34,111 bases of DNA, taken from positions 1 to 34,111 of the forward strand of contig JWZX01003124.1 of NCBI GenBank assembly GCA_001275005.1. The letters are read 5' to 3'. Positions 6,205 to 34,111 of this stretch are shown here, one piece after another. A model generated the notes under the pieces. The model saw only the letters and a list, made by a program, of their open reading frames with translations, was not told the DNA's origin and made no database searches. This DNA comes from Chrysochromulina tobinii. Taxonomy: Eukaryota. Within the stretch, counting starts at the first letter, position 1; every line of letters begins with the position of its first letter. Both the position numbers and the translations under genes were made by a program.

Positions 6205-9200
6205 CTCCGCCTCGAGCCACCTGGCCTCCTGTGCCGCTGTGGCCGCAGTCTCGGCGCGCAGGGTCGCCTGAAAGGCCTTGAGCTCGTGGGCGCTGTATTT
6301 GGCGTCTGGTGAGATCTCGGGCAGCTGGGTGGGCGAGATCGCCCCTCCATTCCGTTGCAGCTCGTGCAATCTCAGGTGCGGGATGCGGTTGTTGCGGGCG
6401 CGTGCACTGGGCTCCTCCAGGCTAGGGGCGCGCTCCGGACGCAGCTGGGCCATCTGGTCAGCATCCCAGCCCATCGACAGAATGAGCGCGCACAGCGCAC
6501 TCTCGTTGACGGAGGCATACATGACGGCCTCGACCATCTTGAGGTCACTCATCGAGAGCTTCACCTGCATGCAATCAGGGAGGGCCATCAGCATGCAATC
6601 AGCATGCACTCAGGTTCGACCATCTTGAGGGCACTCATCGAGAGCTTCGCCTTCTTGAGCTGGCCAGATGAGAGAGGCAATCAGAGATCATCAGAGGCAT
6701 CGTCATCGAGAGCTTCACCTTCTTGAGCTGGCCAGATGGCCCAGCGGCGGCATCTACCCCCTTGGCGCCGCCGCTGGTGGCCTGCGCTTTGCTCGGACTG
6801 ATGGTCGAGCTCAGACGACGTCTAGTCGGCCCAGAGGCCGATTGCGCGTCTCCGTCGACGACGCCTGTGCCCTCTTCGTCGCCGTCGCTCAGTTTGATAC
6901 CGAGCAGCTCCGCGAGCGCCGGTGTGATGAACGTCATGGCACTGCCGTCCGATGGCACGCTCAGGCTCGCCTTGCCGTCGCTAGCCCCCGACGACTTTTG
7001 GCGTCGGAGCTGGGGCCTCGAAGATCGCGAAGATTCGACTGGGAGCGTCTGCTCGAGTGCCAAGGACGCGGCCGTCGACGCAAAGGAAGCGACCGTTGAC
7101 TGCGAGCAATTCGATCGGGCGCGCTTCGGGGGATTCGGACGCAGCGGCCCCATCACTGAGCCGCCATCGGAGCGAGTGTCGCGACAGTCTGCGCCACCGC
7201 CGCCGCCGCCGCCATCGCTGCTGCTACCTGTAGCTTGGTCGAGCGAATGGCCCTCCCGCTTCAAGTCACCGAGCTCGATGCCCGCAAAGCGCGCCGTCTT
7301 CTCGGGAGCGGTCTCGCGCGCGCGCAGCTTCTCCATCGCTCGGCGCACCTCGAGCAGCTGCCGAGTGCGCTGAAGCACCGCACCGCGCACCTTGTCGGGC
7401 AACTGGTTGCACACGACGGGATTCGAGAGCACTTCGGCCGAGGCCTCGAGGGAGGCGACAGCCCCGAGGGCGACCCCCTCAACGCGCTCGACCCCCCGGC
7501 GCGCCTCGCGGCAGCGCGCCTCTGCCGCCGAGATGCGCGCTGCGACCGCGTCGAGGGTTTCGTCAAACTCGGCGCGTGCCGCATCGCCCGTCTCGCGGAC
7601 GCTCGCCAAATCGAGCTGCAGCCGTATGATCTTCTCCTTGGACCGTTCCATGAGGGCCACGCGGTCCCTCTCAACCCCCTCAAACGTCTCTCGTGCTTCG
7701 AGCTGGTCCATAATGTACTGCAGCGCGTGCGCCATGCGCGCGCTGAAGGGCGCCGCATGAGCTGCGGGCGCGTCGCACGCGAGCGCAATCTTCTCAAACG
7801 CGGTGCGAAGACTAATCGAGCCGCGCTCGTGCTCGAGCTTCTCTGCTCGGGCGATGGTCACTGCCGCTCCCGAATCGCGCAGCGCTGAGTCCACGCGCAC
7901 GCTCGCGTCATAGTAGTTTTGTTCCGCCCGCCTTGGCCGCCCTCGCTACCTCGCCCGTCACGTTGAACTCGAGCGCTTCGTTATCCAAGGCCACTACCTG
8001 TCCGAGATCATCGCGCTGCCGCTCGGTCGTCGCCTCGCCGACCATGATGTTCCCATTTCCAGCGCCGACCAGTTCCATCGCCCTCTTACGGCGCGCTGAG
8101 CCGGCTTCGTGCAATTGGGCCGCGCGCTCCTTGCGCAGCCGCGCGTGCTCCTCGGACTGAGCTCTCAAGCGCACGTGCTCCGCCATCCGCCGCGCCTTCC
8201 ATTGCTCCGCGGACGCGAGCGCGAGCTCACTGTCCACGATCGTCTTTTCGAGCCGTTCGTTGACCTCGAGTATGCTTGAGCGGAGGTACGTGAGCTTTCG
8301 AGGGTAGTGCGGCCGATACTGCCGCAGACGCTCCTCCATGAAGATGAGTGTCGCACAGTCCGACTCCACACTCATGAGCTCTTCCAAGGCCACCTCGCAC
8401 CGCGCCTCGGCCTCTCCTCGTTCGTCGACGGTGGCCGACAGGTCGACGCCTGATGAGAGAGGCACTCAGAGGTCATCAGAGGTCATCCGAGGCCATCAGA
8501 GATCATCCGAGGTCATCCGAGGTCATCAGTGGCACTTGTCATCTCACCCATGCCAAAGAGACGTTCCTTGAGGGCCTCGAACTCGCGCTCCAAAAGCCTC
8601 TTCTCCGCCTGGCGCTCGTCGGCGAGCTCACGCAGCGCGTCGAGGCGCCGTTTGGTCGCAAGGAGCTTCTTCTCTTCGGTGGCGGCTAGCTCGTCCAAGG
8701 CTGCGCGCACCTGCTCGTCGCCGGTCTGGTTGGCTTCGCGCCAGGAGGCCATCACGACCGAATACGGCTTCGGCGGCGCCAGCGACAGCGGTTGGCGCGC
8801 CGCCGATGCCGACGCCGATGACGGCGCACCGAAGGGCGTGCCATTCACTGTGGTCGCGCCGGCGCCGCGGGCGCCGCCCTCAGCCTCAGCCCGCGAGTAC
8901 TGCAGCGTCGCACTCGATGTCAAATCTGACGCCGAGCACAGGCTCATCGTGAGCGTGTCGGTGAGCTCCTTCGCATCTGTGGGATCGCGCTGGCCCCGAC
9001 GAAGCTTTGCCGGCGTCGGCAGCGCGCTGCTGGCCGTGCTGCCGGCCAAGTTCCGATAGATAGAGGACTCGCAAAGCGATGGACGTGCGGTGAGCGCCGA
9101 GAGCGGACGCGATATCGCGATGGGCTTCTGCAAGCGCGAAGTCGCCGGCCGCGAGGCCAGGCTATTGGCGGTGAGCCGGGTGCGCGGAGACGTCATGTGC

Positions 9201-15821: not shown

Positions 15822-17983
15822 TCACTCAGCCTCGCCGTCGCCCAAGCTGACCTCAGCCTCGCCGTCGCCCAAGCTGACGCTCGGCGGTGTGCTCGGTGTC
15901 TTCGCCGCTGCGAGCGCCTCCTTTGCCACCTCTGTGTTGTCGCGCGACGTGAGCTGCTGCTCACTCCCCAAGGCACCGGTGCCATCTCGGTGCAATCTCG
16001 GTGCCATCTCGCTCCCCAAGGCACCCGGGGAGCGCAGCACGACGTGGCCCTCGGAAAAGGCCAGCGACGTCTCAGCGTGCTGCCAGTTGGGCGGAGCCGA
16101 CGTTGCCTCGCGCGCCGTCGTCGCCGTCGCCGTCGCCGCCGCTGAAGCCCCTGCCGCGCCGCGCCATCCGCCCAAGACGTCGCCGGCGCCGCGACTTGCC
16201 CCGACGCTGCCGCCGCACGAGTAGCTCGTGGCGCCCAAGGCGGCGCTCGCCGCATGAGCGTACGCGCTCGCCACGGCGCTTGGCGTGGAGGTCCTTCCAA
16301 ACGAGGCAGGCGGATTGCCTAATATGCTCGCGGAGTGCCCAAAGGGGCTGCTCGCGAAGCTTGCGGTGCTGCGCGGCGCCGTGACGGGCATCCCCAGACC
16401 CGCGCCCAACGCGGCGCGCGCGCCCGCCGCGCTCGGATACGCGCTCGGCGCCGTGTTGGGCGCGTCCCGCGCCGTGCTGGGCGACTCCCACGCGCGCAGG
16501 GGCGAGGTGCGTAGGTCGCCGAGGGCCCATTGGAGCTCGCGCTTCTCTGCGTGCAGCGCATTGAGCGCGCGCGCGGCGCGGCTCCGTTCACGCAACGCCT
16601 CGTCGCGCTGGCGCACCTGATGAAGGAGGCAATTCGAGGCACTCAGCGGCACTCAGCGGCAATCATGAGCCATCATGAGTGGTCCTCGTCAAACGCACCA
16701 GCGGCTGCCAGCGCTCCTCGGCCACCGCGGCGCGGACTTGCTCTTCAAGGAGCTTCTCCTCCGACCGCCGCATCAAGAGCTCTATCCGCAACCGTTCGGC
16801 ACGCTCGAGCTCGAACCGCTCCGCCGTCGCGCGCCGCTGCTGCTCGAGCTCCTTGGCCTGCAGCTCCGCGTACTCGCATCGGGTGCGCAGCTCGCCTGTC
16901 TCCGAGCGGAGCCGCTCGGCTGCATAACGCGCCGCCTCGAGCGCCGCCACGCCTTCCGCCTCAAGCGCCGCCACACGCACCTGCAGCAGCGCGACCGTCT
17001 CCTGCGCCAAGCTGCGCGCCTTGGCCATCTCCGCGGCGCGCGCGTCCGCCGCCTCGGCGCGCAGTCTCGTCCGATCTCGTTCCTCGGCCACGTGGCCGAT
17101 GGAGCTCCTCGGACCGTTTGACGGATTCGACGAGACCCTTGGCCTCAGAGGCGGTGGCTGCGAGTCGCTCGCTGAGCGCCGCGCGCTCGCGCTGCGCGGC
17201 CTCGCGCTCGCGCTGCGCGGCCTCGCGCTCGGACTCCATCTCGCGCTGCCGAGCCTCGGCGGCGGCCGCGCGCTCGCGTTCTCGCGCGAGCTCGTCCCGG
17301 AGCTCGCGCTGCATCGCGAGGCTCGAGGCTTCGAGGCGCCGCGCCTCGTTCTGTGACGAGTGGAGCATCTCGGTGGCTCGAATGAGGGCCTCGCTCGAGC
17401 GACGCGCCTCGGCCTCGGCCACCTTGGACTGCTCGCGGATCGAGCGCATCTCCGCCTCCGCGGCCGCGCGCGCCTCGTTGGCGGCGTTCGCACGCTCCTT
17501 GGCGGCCGCCGCCTCGGCGGATGCCCGGTCGCGCTCCTCGCACCGGAGCTGCTCCTGCCGCGCCGCAACCTCGCGCACCTGCGCCAGCTCGACGCGTACA
17601 GCGGCCAGCAGCTCCTCGCGCTCGCGTACGTCGCTCTGCAGCTGACGGCTCAAGGCATTCTCTTCGTCGATGCGCGAGAAGAGCCGGCTCTTCTCCGCGT
17701 GCAGCGACTGCAGCTCCCTGCGCTCAATCAGCACGCGAGGCGCGCTCTCATTCGGGTCGTGCTTTCGCGTGGCGGCCTTCACCACCGCGGCCAAGCTAGG
17801 CTTAGGCTTCGCCACGGCGGTGGCCGTCGGCTTGGACGCCGTCGGGCTGCTCTGGGCCGCCGCCGGAGGCGAAGACTTGCCGTCCTGGACCGCTGGTGGC
17901 GAAGTCAGAATGGCAGGCTTCGCCGCTGCTGTGGCCTTCGAATTTGCAGGCTTCGTCGCTGCTGTGGCCTTCTTGCTCGACAT
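15822..17983 (-). CDS. Coiled-coil protein of unknown function (~690 aa, 2 exons, one apparent frameshift)
   Basis: Exons 17983-16699 and 16616-15822; intron GTGCGT...CATCAG, phase 0. Removing one base at 17101-17102 gives SEELIGHVAEERDR and a continuous E/R/A-rich coiled coil. Confidence 0.72.
15825..15878 (-). repeat. Perfect 27-nt tandem duplication just before the stop codon (VSLGDGEAE x2)
   Basis: ctcagcctcgccgtcgcccaagctgac at 15825 and 15852. Confidence 0.92.
16617..16698 (-). repeat. Intron built from decamer repeats (TGAGTGCCGC-type), ending CCTCCTTCATCAG
   Basis: Plus strand ggcactcagc x2 plus variants. Confidence 0.85.
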
Positions 17984-26291: not shown

Positions 26292-27878
26292 ATGTCGGCG
26301 CGCTTCGTATTGTCTGCACTCCTACTGTCGGGAGTGCGCGTCCACGCGCTGTCAACCGGTTCCGCTACCTCTGCTGCTCGACCGACCCTTGCGCCGCGCT
26401 GCCGTCGGAGCGTCGCGGTCGCCAGCCCGCCACGGAGTGCTCTCGCCCAGCACAGCGAGGACGACAGCGAGGACGACAGCGAGCCGCTCCCTGCTGACAT
26501 CGCAGTTGCGCTGCCGCGGCCATCGTCGCTGCTGCGCGTGCTCTGGCGCTTCTCGCGACCGCATACTATGCTCGGCTCCGCGGTGTGCATTCCTGCGCTC
26601 ACGTTGTACGCGGCGCCGGCGGGAGCGGCGCTGTCGCTGCCACTGCTCCAAGGCGTGCTGTACGCCTTGCCCGCCGCGCTGCTCATGAACGTGTACATCA
26701 CCGGCCTCAACCAGCTGCTCGACATCGAGATTGACCGCATCAACAAACCCGACCTGCCGCTGGCCTCGGGCGAGCTCAGTCCGTTCGCCGGCAGCCTGCT
26801 CGTGGCTGGAGCTCTCGTCCTCTCCCTCGGCCTCGGCTGGTGGCATCCCTGGCTCTCTACGAACGCGCTGCGCATCACGCTGCTGGGCTCGGCGGTGCTT
26901 GGCACGCTCTACTCGGCGCCGCCCTTCCGTCTCAAGCGCTTTCCGCTCCTCGCTAGCGCCTGCATCATCACCGTCCGGTGCATGCATGCGCGTGTGCCAG
27001 CCAGTCCTCGGCCGATGGATCCCCTTGCATGCATGCATGCGCGTGTGCCAGCCAGTCCTCGGCCGATGGATCCCCTTGCACGCGCCCTCCCGGCTCGCAC
27101 TCACACTCGCCCCCACGCCCCATGCCGCCCGCAGCGGTGCGCTGGTCAATTGGGGCTTCTGCGCACACGCGATCTCCGTCGCCGCGGCCGCGGCAGGCTC
27201 GCTGCCGTCGGCGGCGCTCGGCTGGTCGTCGCTGCCGCTTCGCTGCTGGGCGCCCGTTGGCTTCTTCAGCCTCTTCGGCCTCGTGATCGCGTTGTTGAAA
27301 GACGTGCCCGACATCAAGGGCGACCGACAGTTTGGAATCCGCTCCTTCTCGGTGCGAGCGCGCCACTGGTTGCCATGGATTGCCGCTGATTGCCGCTGAG
27401 TGGATCTGATGGCCTCCTTCATCAGAGATGGATTGCCGCTGATTGCCGCTGAGTGGATCTGATGGCCTCCTTCATCAGAGATGGATTGCCGGTGAGTGCT
27501 ACCGAGTGCTGCCGAGTGCCACTGATTGCCACTGATTGCCATTCGATGACCACTGAGGGCCACTGATGGCCACTCGATGACCTCCCTCATCAGGTGCGCA
27601 TCGGGGCCGCGGCGGTTCTGCGGCTGGGACTCAATCTGCTCACGACGACGCTCGCGCTAACCGGAGTGGCTCTCGGCGCGGCCGCGACGCTCGCGCCCAC
27701 CGCGGCGCTCGCCGTGCGTCGCCTCGCCGTCAGCCTCGCCTGCGCCGCCTCCGTCGTCGCCATCCGCCGGCGTGCCGCGAGCGTGTCGCCCGATGACCCC
27801 CCAGCCGTCTACGCCCTGTACATGGAGCTCTGGAAGTACTTTTATGGCGCGTACCTGTGCCTGCCGTTCGCCCGTTGA
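26292..27878 (+). CDS. HPT: Homogentisate prenyltransferase, probably phytyltransferase (HPT/VTE2-like, UbiA superfamily), plastid-targeted (395 aa, 3 exons)
   Basis: Exons 26292-26977, 27135-27351, 27594-27878. WRFSRPHT, GLNQLLDIEIDRINKPDLPLASGE, PPFRLKRFP, spliced TVR|GALVNWG, KDVPDIKGD, YMELWKYFY; signal peptide followed by an S/R/A-rich transit peptide. HPT versus HST is not certain. Confidence 0.9.
26979..27080 (+). repeat. Perfect 51-nt tandem duplication in HPT intron 1
   Basis: tgcatgcatgcgcgtgtgccagccagtcctcggccgatggatccccttgca at 26979 and 27030. Confidence 0.92.
27352..27593 (+). repeat. HPT intron 2: decamer repeats (TGATTGCCRC-type) with an internal 53-nt duplication, ending CCTCCCTCATCAG
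   Basis: 53-nt units start at 27375 and 27428, with a partial third at 27481. Confidence 0.9.
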
Positions 27879-30369: not shown

Positions 30370-33214
30370 ATGAACGCGCTGATCCGCGTCGGCGCGAACA
30401 CCATTAATGCCATCATGGGCGCCGCGACGCCCGCGCGGCACATTGTTGAGGATGCGCTGCGCCGCTCGAGCGGCGACGTGGGCACGGCGCTCAACCTGCT
30501 ACTCGATGCACAGCCAGAGGAAGTCTTCTCTCCGCCGCCACCGCCGCCCTCGTTCTCGCCGTATGCGGCGCCTGCGGCAGATCACGCTGCCGCCACGGCT
30601 GGCGCCTCCGGAGCCCACGCGGCTAACGCCATCGACCTGGACGACATAGATGACAGCGTGCCAGCTGTGCGTGTCCCGCCACTCGTCGCATGCTCGGCAC
30701 CGCCTGCCGCAGCACCATCACCAGCACCAGCGCCGGCACCGGCAGCGCGGCAGCCGCGAGATGGTGGCAGCCCTGCCTCCACCTCGGCCTCCGCCTCAGC
30801 CTCCGCCTCGGCCTCCGCTTCGGCCTCCGCCTGCGCGTACGCTGGTGGTGGTGCGGCCTTCACGGGCGCAAGCGCGGTCACGGGCGCGAGCGCTGCCGCC
30901 GCGGCAGTGTGGCCCAAGCTGCTCGCTCCACCAGCGGAGGTACGAGCCCTTTCTCTCTCGCGCATCCGTGAGGGCGAGGTGCTCGAGGACGAGCCTCTCA
31001 CCCTGAAACGTCAAGCCGCGCCCTCCAAGCCCGCCGCCAAGCGAGGGGGTGGAGGCGGCGGCAGCGGCGGCGGCGGCGGGCGTGGCGGTAGCGGCGGCGC
31101 GCGCGGTGGCGGCGGCGCGCGCGGCAGCGGAGCCTCCAGAGGTCCTTTCTTCAAAGCTGCGGCGCCGCCCACGAACAGCATCCTTCGCTTCTGCTCGGCG
31201 CGAGGGTCGGAGCTCGGCCGATTGCCTCTTGAGCTCGCAGAGTGCCTCGCTCCGCTCTTGGACACGCACCGGGCCTCAGTCGAGCTCTCGGCCGGCCGGC
31301 TGCCCCCCGGCGGCCTGGGCATCATGGACGCATTCCCGCTGCGCATCAAGATCTGGCTCGAGCGCGCGGCGTTCACTGACGACCTCGCCGCCGCCGCGTC
31401 CGCGGGCGTCGATGCAAGCGAGACGGCGGCCGCGGCCACGGCGCGTCGGTACGCGCTCGCTTTAAGTCGGCTGGTCCAGCATGCATGCGTCGGCTGGCCC
31501 AGCATGCATGTGCTCACCACGACGCTCTGCTCCCCACAGGTATGCGCTCAGTCGGCTGGTCCGGCAGCTCCGGCTGCCGCCCGAGATCGCCCCCGCCACC
31601 GATCCGCACGCAGGCCTCGACGTGGGAGCCGACAGCGTCGAGGTCGGCGGCGGTGGCGGCGGCGGTGGCGGCGGCGGTGGCGGCGGTGGCAGCGGCGGCG
31701 GCGGTGGCGGCGGTGGCGGTGGCGGCGGTGGCGGCGGTGGCGGCGGCGGCGAGGCGGACGAGGAGAGCCTCTCGGTCGAGCAGTTGCACTCGGTCTACCA
31801 TCAGCTGGGTTGCGACCCGACGCAGCTGAGCCGCTTTGACGCGCCGCAGCCCACCGCCCTCGCCTCGACGCTACACGAGTACCAGCGACAGGGCGTGGGA
31901 TGGATGCGCTCGCGAGAGACCCTCGGGGCGCCGGTACGGCGCTCCGAAGGCAGCGGAACTGGTGGCCCCGGCGCCAGCGGCGAGGGCGGCGGCGGCGGCG
32001 GCGGCGGCACGCTGGTCGCAGAGAGCCTGGCCCCAATGTGGGGAAAGTGGCGGCTGCAGTGCGGCACCCCTTTCTACATTCACGTGGCCTCTGGCGCCGC
32101 GAGCCTCACGCCGCCCTCGGATGCTGGCACGCCGCGCGGCGGCATCCTCGCTGACGAGATGGGACTAGGGAAGACACTGCAGGTGATTGGCACCATCTTG
32201 GCGGACCTTGAGGCTCTCGAGGGTGCGGTGGCCAACGTGGAGGCCAACGGGGATGGAAAGGCGAGCGCTCTCCAGACGGCGGATGGAAAGGCGAGCGCTC
32301 TCCAGACGGTGGATGGAGCTGCGGCAGAGGAAGCGGCGGACGAGGCGCCCACCACGGCGGACGAGGCGCCCACCACGGCGGACGAGGCGCCCACCACGGC
32401 GGACGAGGCGCCCACCACGGCGGATGAGGCGCCCACCACGGCGGAGGTGAAGCAGGAGGCGATGGCGTCGCCGCCACGCCCGCTGCCAACTTGCACTGCC
32501 TTTGACGAAGGGTACGTGAGCTCACCCGAGATTCTCTTCCGTGATGAGCAAGGCGAGTGGCAGGTTCGTCCACCGCGCAGTGCGCAGCGCCGAGCGTCGA
32601 CACCGCCGGTGCCGCAACCGAGCGCCGTGTCGAGCGAGGCAGCAAGCGCAGCCGACGCGGCAGAGGCGAAGGCGGAGGAGGTCGAGGAGGAGCGTGGGGG
32701 AGATGAGGAGGAGGTTCACGTAGGCAGGCGGCGCAGCAGCAGCGCTCGACACAGCGCTGGCCGCCGCCGCAGTGCGCACAAGCGCCGAAGGACGCATCTC
32801 GAAGAGGAGGTGGATGAGGATGAGATGGTGGGAGATGATGACGAGATGTTGGAAGCGCTCGACACAGCGTCCGACACCGCGTCACGTGCTCATCACAACG
32901 CGTCACGTGCTCGCGCATCCGCACGCGATGTGCGTGCTAATGCTGCTGCTGACGCCAGGGTAGCAGCCGCCTCCGCATGCACCGCCTCCGCGGCCTGTGC
33001 CTCCGCGGCCTGTGCCTCCGCGGCCTGTGCCTCCGCGGCCTCCGCGGCCTCCGCGGTCTCCGTGGCTCACTCGAGCTCAGAAGAGGCTTCGTCAAACTTG
33101 GCGCGCGCAGCAGAGGCTTCGTCAAGCGTGGCGCTCAACTCGGCGCGCAGCCGGCCGCGGCGCCGGTGCAGCCAACATGCCGTCTACGTCGGGCTAGATG
33201 AGAGCGACGATGAG

Positions 33215-33247
<33 letters not shown>

Positions 33248-34111
33248 CGTTGCTTGCGGAGTGGCGGCGCGCGCGCGCAGGGCAAGCGCTCACGCGATCA
33301 GCCACCGGCGGCAGCGGCGTCGGCCTCGTCAGCAGCCGCGGCGGCAGCGGGGCGTGGCGGCAAAGCGCGTGTCGGGCAGCGCACGATGACGACGCATGGT
33401 AAGGCGGCCTTGGGCGACGCAGGAGGACGACGAGTGGAAGGCGAGTAGTTCCGATGAGGAGGAGAAGGACGAGGAGGACGAGGACGACGAGGACAAGGAG
33501 GAGGACGATTTTGTGGCGCAGCCACGCCGCCGCCGCCTCAAGAGGCTCAGCCGCACCGCGCCCGCCGCCGTCGCCATCGACGCCAGTGACAGCGCTGTCC
33601 TGAGCGCTCTCTCCGCCTCGAGCCTCCCTACCGCCGCCGCCGCGCCGCATGGTCAGCAGCTTGCGATGCGCGGCGGGCGGCTGGTGGCAGATCGCTCGAG
33701 ATCGCTGGGCGCGCCGATCGGAAGCCGTTACAGCCGTCACAGCGTCTCGCGGCGGCCGGCGACCCTCATCGTGTGCCCGACGTCTCTACTCTCTCAATGG
33801 CACGAGCAATTGGCGCTGCACGTCGTCCCGCACCAGCTGAGCGTGTACGTGTACACCACGGCCAGCCGGCCCAGCATGCATGTGCTCACCACGACGCTCT
33901 GCTCCCCACAGGTACGTACACCACGGCCAGCACCGCACCAAGGACGCGGCTGTGCTCGCGGCGCACGACGTGACGCTCACCACATATGGCGTACTCGCGT
34001 CCGAGTTTGCCGCCTCCAAGGCCAACCAGCAGCACGAAGAGGTCGGCGGGGGCGGCAGCGCCGTCGCGGGCGCCAGCGCCGTCGCGGGCGCCGGCCACAA
34101 GGCGAGTGGAG
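30370..34111 (+). CDS. RAD5: RAD5/HLTF-like SNF2-family DNA repair helicase, 5' part (UBA-like, HIRAN, ATPase motifs Q/I/Ia); runs off the window
   Basis: Exons 30370-31448, 31540-33844 (apparent +1 frameshift in 33390-33445), 33912->34111. ILRFCSARGSELGRLP (HIRAN), LHEYQRQGVGWM, RGGILADEMGLGKT, TLIVCPTSLLSQW, spliced VYVHHG..DVTLTTYGVLASEF. Confidence 0.88.
31449..31539 (+). mobile_element. Introner-like intron, copy 1 of a shared 44-nt 3' module
   Basis: 31496-31539 is identical to 33868-33911; the 5' part copies the downstream exon. Mobility is inferred. Confidence 0.6.
31645..31750 (+). repeat. (GGC/GGT)n microsatellite encoding poly-Gly
   Basis: Directly visible and in frame with the RAD5-like exon 2. 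Confidence 0.9.
32336..32440 (+). repeat. Coding minisatellite, 21 nt x5 (ADEAPTT)
   Basis: gcggacgaggcgcccaccacg repeated five times inside the RAD5-like gene, with one silent variant. Confidence 0.92.
33845..33911 (+). mobile_element. Introner-like intron, copy 2 of a shared 44-nt 3' module
   Basis: GTACGT(GT)ACACCACGGCCAGC duplicates the first 20 nt of the next exon, followed by the shared module. Mobility is inferred. Confidence 0.6.

What the first reader, a model, noticed from the sequence alone, without database searches (positions are those of the whole stretch)
31449..33931. Two introns of one gene share an identical 44-nt acceptor module and each starts with a copy of its own downstream exon: candidate intron-generating system
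Seen: GGCCCAGCATGCATGTGCTCACCACGACGCTCTGCTCCCCACAG ends both intron 31449-31539 and intron 33845-33911, 2.4 kb apart. The rest of each intron is mostly local exon sequence. Intron 2 opens GTACGT(GT)ACACCACGGCCAGC versus exon GTACGTACACCACGGCCAGC. Intron 1 opens GTAcGCGCTC..AGTCGGCTGGTCC..GTCGGCTGG versus exon GTATGCGCTCAGTCGGCTGGTCC. Established: introners in Micromonas and Aureococcus are non-autonomous DNA transposons with TIRs and short target duplications that supply one splice site. Inference: here a TIR-less module brings a branch-like CTCAC plus the 3' splice site, while a long (~20 nt), imperfect target duplication supplies the GT donor, so splicing restores the protein exactly. This fits target-primed insertion or templated break repair better than cut-and-paste.
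Basis: partly seen in the sequence, partly recalled or inferred. Interest (0 to 1): 0.88.

Follow-up and report, generated by a model that had tools for sequence, protein, structure and literature searches.

The report
Self-copying introns that duplicate their target
In a freshwater alga (Chrysochromulina), dozens of short introns in unrelated genes share a 40-base end piece and begin with a copy of the exon that follows them, and they likely spread by being copied from earlier such introns during DNA repair, a route that standard searches for mobile introns would miss.

Summary
Confirmed and extended. The 44-nt stretch is identical at 31496-31539 and 33868-33911, and an RNA contig joins 33844 to 33912, so intron 2 is spliced exactly. 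Intron 1 has frame support only. The module belongs to a family in Chrysochromulina: one metagenome scan gave 38 sites, nearly all short introns in unrelated genes. They share a ~40-nt 3' core and have no terminal inverted repeats. Most open with a 12-42-nt copy of the downstream exon (score 12 or more at 27 of 38 sites, 0 of 250 controls). Several introns also carry pieces of another gene's exon copy, so new copies descend from earlier daughters. Two donor-recipient pairs share 13-14 of 14 flanking bases, and one copy leaves the module before the AG. Best reading (0.5): microhomology-guided template switching, with splicing selecting the survivors; LINE-type retroposition is the main rival (0.25). 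Introners are known in this genus, but I found no description of this anatomy. The published pipeline needs similarity at both intron ends and lists zero families for C. tobinii. The scan noted a similar footprint earlier in this genome (e1-2577349). No empty allele or enzyme was found.

The parts
30370..31448 (+). Exon 1 of a RAD5-like helicase gene (HIRAN domain)
   Evidence: Pfam PF08797, E 8e-07; frame
31449..31539 (+). Intron 1, 91 nt, GT-AG, family member; splicing inferred, not shown by RNA
   Evidence: Removal joins the HIRAN frame to the SNF2 frame; the only other in-frame GT donor among the 7 tested is 31398; X16 record 8 runs 15 nt in unspliced
31449..31477 (+). Copy of the first 23 nt of exon 2 with one substitution and a 6-nt insertion; supplies the GT donor
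   Evidence: Sequence
31466..31511 (+). Internal tandem duplication of 23 nt spanning the exon-copy/module junction
   Evidence: 21 of 23 identical
31496..31539 (+). 44-nt stretch identical in both introns; family core 31502-31525, branch-like CTCAC 31513-31517 (branch use inferred), pyrimidine tract and AG
   Evidence: core conserved in 30-35 of 35 sites per position
31540..33844 (+). Exon 2 (SNF2 helicase region); its first 23 nt are the source of the intron-1 copy; a small indel near 33376-33464 is probably an assembly error in the window
   Evidence: Pfam PF00176, E 1.2e-09 and 8e-05; one gap in a contig of each of 4 runs over that stretch
33845..33911 (+). Intron 2, 67 nt, GT-AG, family member, spliced exactly
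   Evidence: RNA contig X15 record 6 joins 33844 to 33912
33845..33866 (+). Copy of the first 20 nt of exon 3 with a 2-nt insertion; supplies the GT donor
   Evidence: Sequence
33868..33911 (+). 44-nt stretch identical to the end of intron 1, likely copied from it
   Evidence: The last 16 nt occur only in these two of 35 sites
33912..34111 (+). Exon 3 (cut by the window end); its first 20 nt are the source of the intron-2 copy

Best explanation
These two introns belong to a Chrysochromulina intron family that likely spreads without its own transposase, by a DNA end at a new site switching template onto an existing family intron and back. Shown: the anatomy is [copy of the downstream exon, 0-42 nt] + [leftover of a former host] + [~40-nt core ending in AG], in sense orientation, and intron 2 is spliced exactly. 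Inferred steps: (1) a broken or stalled strand that has passed a GT-starting site by n bases anneals by a few matching bases to the 5' part of a donor intron (DNA or unspliced RNA); (2) it copies to the AG and a few bases into the donor's next exon; (3) it rejoins its own locus at the GT by that short match, which duplicates the n bases. (4) Only products of about 65-90 nt with a donor-like GT and the AG are spliced out and survive in exons. (5) Each product is itself a new donor with a new 5' part, so the family builds chains. Intron 2 here likely came from intron 1 in this way.
For: Family: 95 of 127 matches to an 18-nt core in 110 metagenome loci end in a pyrimidine tract plus ACAG. The exon copy scores 12 or more at 27 of 38 sites against 0 of 250 mismatched pairs. 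Copy length is continuous, 0-42 nt, median 24. There is no terminal inverted repeat longer than 6 nt in 34 introns and no stable fold (z 0.08, -0.19, 0.26). Chains: L038 shares 29 of 29 nt with L011, 20 nt of it L011's own exon copy, with an 8-nt overlap at the junction; L005 shares 28 of 29 with L028, 4-nt overlap. L015 is a whole copy of the L011 intron; L043 opens with L086's exon copy; L007 carries L008's. Homology at the target: 2 of 561 site pairs match at 11 or more of 14 exon positions, and both are among the 9 pairs with the most alike modules. For L007 the flanks are native protein (W-x-R-D/E before the junction in 8 of 18 homologs shown), yet they match L008's flanks, read in another frame, for 15 nt downstream and 11 nt upstream. 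The upstream match is the longest of 595 pairs; an excised intron RNA could not see upstream exon. One copy (L006/L061) leaves the module before the AG at a 5-nt match and adds 48 nt, a multiple of three. 16 of 38 sites lie in 8 same-gene or same-locus pairs.
Against: No empty allele was found, and no event was caught in the act. Most junctions, including both in this window, show only 1-3 matching bases, which is near chance. An unrelated pair also has a 10-nt upstream match, so the upstream-homology argument rests on one pair. Conservation drops sharply at the G of GCATG (34 of 35, against 16 of 35 one base upstream), which suits a defined element end, or selection on a splicing motif, better than random switching. 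The 3' end sits at the AG in all sites but one. No clearly intergenic copy was seen, which selection alone does not explain. Same-locus pairs are favoured by how the loci were fetched. Short repeats can be misassembled: L109 joins the 5' side of L015 to the 3' side of L038.
Confidence: 0.5

Rival explanations
1. SINE-like retroposition: a LINE-type enzyme reverse-transcribes family intron RNA or pre-mRNA at a nick before a GT. The second nick 10-40 nt away makes the duplication, and the copy is cut short at its 5' end and joined by microhomology.
For: Variable-length duplications, an almost fixed 3' end at the AG and variable 5' ends. Non-LTR elements make variable and sometimes very long duplications in algae (PMC9977147, passages). 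Non-LTR introners that co-opt the 5' site and carry the 3' site are listed, one of them in a haptophyte (PMC12130899 supplement rows).
Against: No A-tail or simple-repeat tail. No copy continues into a longer shared element in any of the 110 loci. One copy ends before the AG at a microhomology. One pair matches in the upstream exon. Listed non-LTR introners have duplications of 2-11 nt where given (8 of 14 rows).
Confidence: 0.25
2. Old introns rebuilt in place: existing introns were overwritten by local duplication and gene conversion from family members, so few positions are new.
For: Three of 35 sites have no own exon copy (L001, L043, L054). L005 and L029 follow directly on another intron's AG. 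Five of 18 homologs of the L007 gene begin exactly at the junction, as they would if relatives had an intron at or near it. No presence/absence polymorphism of a family intron was seen.
Against: Exon copies differ from their exons at only 37 of 709 positions, so they are young, and they start at the intron's first base. Three homologs (P0163, P0167, P0176) look unspliced further upstream yet run straight through the L007 position (intron-like upstream text is my reading).
Confidence: 0.12
3. A defined ~40-nt mini-element (GCATG...CACAG), moved by an unknown host or transposon enzyme, often carries along 5' flanking sequence and makes long staggered cuts.
For: Sharp 5' edge of conservation and a fixed 3' end. 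About 72% of catalogued introner families have no assigned mechanism (PMC12130899).
Against: No inverted ends; duplication length is continuous from 0 to 42 nt; same-register homology between donor and target flanks.
Confidence: 0.1
4. Assembly artefact or chance resemblance.
For: One probable chimeric contig (L109). The window has a probable indel error elsewhere in this gene.
Against: 0 matches in 100 shuffles; both introns are present in two independent assemblies; DNA contigs of X8 enter both modules from their own flanks; RNA shows exact splicing of intron 2.
Confidence: 0.02

Closest known systems
DNA-transposon introners (Micromonas, Aureococcus, Symbiodinium, Polarella classes 4-6, 8, 10)
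   Same: The element carries the 3' splice site, the 5' site comes from the target duplication, and the mRNA is restored (bioRxiv 2022.06.06.494994 passages; bioRxiv 2020.10.14.339549 parts 1-2 of 4).
   Different: Those have fixed duplications of 3-8 nt and often inverted ends. Here the duplication is 0-42 nt and variable, there are no inverted ends, and each copy's 5' half is host-derived.
Haptophyte introners already catalogued (marine Chrysochromulina MAGs; Emiliania huxleyi fam24; Pavlovales fam1)
   Same: Same phylum or genus, TIR-less, strongly genic. E. huxleyi fam24 and Pavlovales fam1 co-opt the 5' site and carry the 3' site (supplement rows).
   Different: The Chrysochromulina example has a 4-bp duplication and carries the 5' site. 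E. huxleyi fam24 (5 copies) has a called duplication of 2 nt and a note of 10-bp terminal direct repeats. Their sequences were not seen, so a hidden likeness cannot be excluded. C. tobinii is listed with 0 families.
Intron gain by double-strand-break repair (Daphnia pulex)
   Same: New introns arise with direct repeats from staggered breaks (PMC4202315 passages).
   Different: The source of most Daphnia inserts is unknown and not a shared family. Here the insert is traceably copied from other introns of one family.
Intron transposition, intron transfer, same-gene duplications and low-copy introns (fungi, Oikopleura)
   Same: Intron sequence is copied to new sites, often in the same gene (PMC3443670 and PMC3609843 passages).
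   Different: Those copies are near-identical end to end, and transfer needs paralogs. Here only the 3' part is shared, the 5' part is a fresh target copy, and the genes are unrelated.
Tandem genomic duplication model of intron gain
   Same: A duplicated exon segment supplies a splice site.
   Different: It needs AGGT in the duplicated segment and no insert. Here a foreign module supplies the acceptor, and only 9 of 35 sites have AG before the GT.

Membership tests
Introner (operational definition of Gozashti 2025) | At least 4 similar introns in unrelated genes | tested here: met
   38 sites; flanks hit Molybdopterin/NADH_dhqG_C, Nop, AAA, MMPL, DNA_methylase and HIRAN/SNF2
Introner (operational definition of Gozashti 2025) | Similarity extends to both exon-intron boundaries | tested here: not met
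   The 5' ends are site-specific exon copies; criterion read
Introner (operational definition of Gozashti 2025) | Spliced out, protein preserved | tested here: met
   Intron 2 by RNA; L015 junction contiguous in P0150; an open frame across most junctions
Introner (operational definition of Gozashti 2025) | Recent gain at formerly intron-less sites | tested here: inconclusive
   5.2% copy-to-exon divergence; mixed signal at one site; no empty allele found
MITE / cut-and-paste introner | Terminal inverted repeats | tested here: not met
   Longest terminal complement 3-6 nt in 34 introns, 3-5 nt in the modules
MITE / cut-and-paste introner | Short target duplication of fixed length | tested here: not met
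   0-42 nt, continuous, median 24 in 35 sites
MITE / cut-and-paste introner | One splice site carried, the other co-opted from the duplication | tested here: met
   The exon starts with GT at 31 of 35 sites, consensus GT(G/A)CG(C/G)
MITE / cut-and-paste introner | Matching autonomous transposase | not testable with these tools
   No whole genome is held
SINE / non-LTR retroposed element | Variable-length target duplication and 5' truncation (features recalled; variable duplications also) | tested here: met
SINE / non-LTR retroposed element | A-rich or simple-repeat 3' tail (recalled) | tested here: not met
   Copies end in a pyrimidine tract plus ACAG
SINE / non-LTR retroposed element | Partner LINE sharing the 3' end | not testable with these tools
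   No genome and no repeat library; none seen in the 250-nt flanks of 110 loci
Fungal introner-like elements | End-to-end identity, stable fold, no target duplication | tested here: not met
   Fold z-scores near 0; long duplications; definition
Tandem genomic duplication intron | Intron consists only of duplicated exon, with AGGT at both ends | tested here: not met
   A foreign 40-nt core is present; AG precedes the GT at 9 of 35 sites

The most novel reading that the evidence does not exclude
A transposase-free chain reaction of intron gain: each intron's exon-derived 5' half works as a homology guide that is rewritten at every jump, so the family keeps finding new splice-ready targets. Other repeat modules in this genome use the same route, and such families are a widespread source of new introns that introner pipelines discard.
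Probability: 0.3. Interest if true: 0.88.

Novelty: new variant of a known kind. Interest (0 to 1): 0.74.

Why it matters
Most new introns have no known source, and about 72% of catalogued introner families have no assigned mechanism. This family keeps a record of each step: the target copy, the leftover of the previous host and the junctions. Donor-to-daughter chains can therefore be rebuilt, and DNA-repair and retroposition models can be tested directly in a culturable alga. The published pipeline requires similarity at both intron ends, so it would discard such families as secondary insertions. A simple new search, intron 5' end against its own downstream exon, could show how common the route is.

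Tried and rejected
No whole genome is held, so copy number and the share of intergenic copies are unknown. RNA runs X18-X20 were not examined, so intron 1 lacks RNA proof. A homolog search with the HIRAN exon found no longer protein that could span intron 1 (0 of 7,976 candidates; weak evidence). Rfam gave 0 matches. Folding gave no structure beyond shuffles. The exact core had 0 matches in viral contigs. A degenerate core gave 6 viral and 4 prokaryotic loci; 9 of the 10 lack the tract and AG and were rejected as chance, and L112 looks like a family member. 15 of the 110 metagenome loci were rejected as chance, and L042 as a coding repeat. A general test for foreign exon sequence in the middle parts separated only 2 of 25 sites from the control range (scores 21 and 17, control maximum 12); the other chains rest on shared intron ends. 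Average flank similarity of related pairs was only slightly raised (5.8 against 4.7 of 14), so strong homology targeting is the exception. A generic scan of the window found 1 convincing other-module intron with an exon copy among 199 acceptor-like sites; the other 5 hits were coding repeats, and the scan missed the two gapped copies of this finding. Summed contig depth over the modules (593 and 653 against about 33) shows other copies but is not a copy number. Pfam gave no hit for 5 of 16 exon pieces, and two more were below cut-off.
Full report
OBSERVATION. It occurs twice in the window and never in 100 shuffles. Both copies end GT-AG introns of a RAD5-like gene: HIRAN in the first exon and SNF2 pieces after it; the name RAD5-like is my reading of that domain pair. 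Intron 2 (67 nt) begins with a 20-nt copy of its downstream exon carrying a 2-nt insertion. An RNA contig of run X15 joins 33844 to 33912 without differences, while DNA contigs of X8 and two independent assemblies hold the intron. Intron 1 (91 nt) begins with a 23-nt exon copy carrying a substitution and a 6-nt insertion, then an internal 23-nt tandem duplication. Its removal links the HIRAN and SNF2 frames; of 7 GT sites tested, only 31449 and 31398 do so. It has no RNA proof. I laid 3 of the 6 RNA runs found; none spans the junction, and one contig from another strain enters the intron by 15 nt unspliced, which may be retained intron or DNA.

ORGANISM. The window's spermidine synthase has Prymnesium parvum as its best named hit (75%) and shares a 90% cluster with a Chrysochromulina parva protein. 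The host is therefore Chrysochromulina; I did not fix the species.

FAMILY. An exact 18-nt core found 110 metagenome loci with 127 matches. 95 matches end in a pyrimidine tract plus ACAG; 14 are tandem copies inside such introns; 2 are one site that lacks the AG; 1 is a coding repeat; 15 are chance. A relaxed core gave 41 clusters by downstream exon. Two are chance and one is an internal tandem copy, leaving 38 family sites. The exon-copy test ran on the 38 clusters with at least 60 nt upstream, which still include those three: score 12 or more in 27 of 38 against 0 of 250 mismatched pairs, and 8 or more in 31 of 38 against 3 of 250. For the statistics I kept 35 sites (6 dropped: those three and three with too little upstream DNA) and set three intron starts by hand. 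Introns are 65-91 nt at 33 of 35 sites. The exon copy is 0-42 nt, median 24; five of the longer ones are weak alignments. Ungapped copies differ from their exon at 37 of 709 positions. Copy length and leftover length trade off (Spearman -0.67, 33 sites). The exon starts with GT at 31 of 35 sites, consensus GT(G/A)CG(C/G), which looks like a donor site. Host genes are unrelated and in sense orientation where Pfam could tell; at L025 the two halves cover MMPL profile positions 159-230 and 237-301, in step with the residues between them. Protein P0150 reads straight through the L015 junction; whether it comes from a transcript or an intron-less allele is unknown. There are no inverted ends, no fold beyond shuffles and no Rfam match.

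CHAINS OF DESCENT. The part between the exon copy and the core is often another site's exon copy. L038 matches L011 over 29 of 29 nt, 20 nt of it inside L011's exon copy, with 8 nt shared by both at the junction. L005 matches L028 over 28 of 29 nt with 4 nt shared. L015 holds the whole L011 intron. L043 starts with L086's exon copy and has none of its own. L007 carries L008's. L001, L003, L012 and L054 share a segment that traces to the L103 exon copy. In the window, the last 16 nt are unique to the two introns among 35 sites, and the first two bases of the 44-mer belong to intron 1's exon copy, so intron 2 likely derives from intron 1. Copies are thus made from earlier daughters, not from one master element (inference).

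WHAT THE JUNCTIONS SAY. Two of 561 site pairs match at 11 or more of 14 exon positions (L011/L015, 14; L007/L008, 13), and both are among the 9 pairs with the most alike modules. For L007, homologs at 49-75% identity keep the same residues on both sides of the junction: W-x-R-D/E before it in 8 of the 18 shown (of 25 hits), and VLAMRNAHLA exactly in 3. The match to L008, which is read in another frame in a CxxC motif, therefore existed before the insertion. It includes 11 nt of upstream exon, the longest of 595 pairs, though one unrelated pair has 10. One copy (L006/L061) has a duplication of over 20 nt, enters the module at a 6-nt match, leaves it before the AG at a 5-nt match, and adds 48 nt. 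These points favour a DNA or pre-mRNA template and joins by short homology. Against this: most junctions, including both in this window, share only 1-3 bases; the average flank similarity of related pairs is barely raised (5.8 against 4.7 of 14); conservation has a sharp edge at GCATG (34 of 35 against 16 of 35); no intergenic copy was recognised; and L109 shows that contigs can be misjoined through the module.

NEW OR OLD POSITIONS. Young exon copies that start at the intron's first base argue for gain. Three L007 homologs appear unspliced a few bases upstream yet run through the L007 position, but five begin exactly at it. Three sites lack an own copy and two abut another intron's AG. No empty allele was found, so gain is likely but not shown.

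WIDER PATTERN. A different, satellite-like intron repeat also appears with long duplications: in the window at 6718-6565 on the minus strand, and in one strain but not another at L044 against L028 and at L005 against L107. The copying route may be a general property of this genome (inference).

MECHANISM. I put 0.5 on microhomology-guided template switching from existing family introns, filtered by splicing; 0.25 on LINE-driven retroposition; 0.12 on rebuilding of old introns; 0.10 on a defined mini-element with an unknown enzyme; and 0.02 on artefact. Shown: anatomy, family, splicing of intron 2, and shared segments between sites. Inferred: direction of copying, template type, branch point, and the role of selection. 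General features of LINE insertion and of microhomology repair are recalled, except where a call is cited.

COMPARISON. It works like an introner that carries the 3' site and co-opts the 5' site. It fails the tests for a cut-and-paste introner and fails the both-ends criterion of the published pipeline, which lists C. tobinii with 0 families. Introners are known from at least 16 marine Chrysochromulina MAGs; the illustrated family has a 4-bp duplication and carries the 5' site. E. huxleyi fam24 and Pavlovales fam1 share the splice logic. Listed non-LTR introners have duplications of 2-11 nt where given. Papers seen: bioRxiv 2022.06.06.494994 / PMC9860276 (passages; supplement rows, file cut when stored); PMC12130899 (parts 1-2 of 7, passages, supplement rows); bioRxiv 2020.10.14.339549 (parts 1-2 of 4; supplements not seen); PMC11282704 (parts 1-2 of 5); PMC4202315, PMC3443670, PMC3609843, PMC9977147 and PMC12403724 (passages). 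Huff 2016 was seen only through these. Nine searches listed no title or abstract describing long variable exon copies with chained inheritance. A 12-nt piece of the core was absent from both introner supplements, which may not hold sequences. Subscription papers and the authors' sequence repository were not searched.

EARLIER NOTES. One note from another piece of this genome reports a 66-nt intron with a 15-nt copy and over a hundred relatives. It agrees with my reading; I could not check whether it is the same family. A sequence look-up found nothing.

VERDICT. Real, multi-copy and spliced where tested. It is a new variant of introner-like gain with an unusually readable history, and the mechanism is not settled. 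Interest 0.74.

Noticed in passing
window 6565-6718 (-): A 154-nt intron built from a different, satellite-like repeat begins with a 16-nt copy of its downstream exon and holds a second, ~52-nt copy that spans the exon junction: two nested duplications.
   Followed up: partly
window 16615-16696 (-) and 27353-27593 (+), approximate: Introns of the satellite-like type (ending in CCTTCATCAG or CCCTCATCAG) share only a short or decayed start with their downstream exons; the second has an internal 53-nt tandem repeat.
   Followed up: partly
window 33376-33464 (+): The reading frame of the RAD5-like gene breaks here, and one contig from each of four runs has a gap over this stretch, so the window probably has a small indel error.
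   Followed up: partly
window 15958-16031 (-): A short repeat insert is flanked by a ~19-nt direct repeat and does not end in AG.
   Followed up: no
L044 against L028; L005 against L107; L016 against L035: Extra satellite-type inserts or duplications of 26-50 nt at intron edges are present in one strain and absent in another.
   Followed up: partly
L036/L047/L066, L001/L022/L049/L055, L011/L033, L079, L053: Tandem multimers of the module (58-64-nt units) or of the whole intron, differing between strains (L012 has one unit, L036 three; L035 one intron, L079 two).
   Followed up: partly
L109: The contig joins the upstream gene of L015 to the downstream gene of L038 through the shared intron; a misassembly or a real recombination.
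   Followed up: no
L112:301-360: A family-like module with an acceptor lies at the end of a contig filed as viral; host contamination or a virus-borne copy.
   Followed up: no
L024: The exon copy starts GGT, so the likely donor is a GT five bases upstream and two codons would be lost; not every insertion restores the protein exactly.
   Followed up: no
window 26977-27135 (+): An intron in a prenyltransferase-like gene (label recalled) has an internal tandem repeat of about 50 nt with GCATGCATG, the same motif that opens the family core.
   Followed up: no
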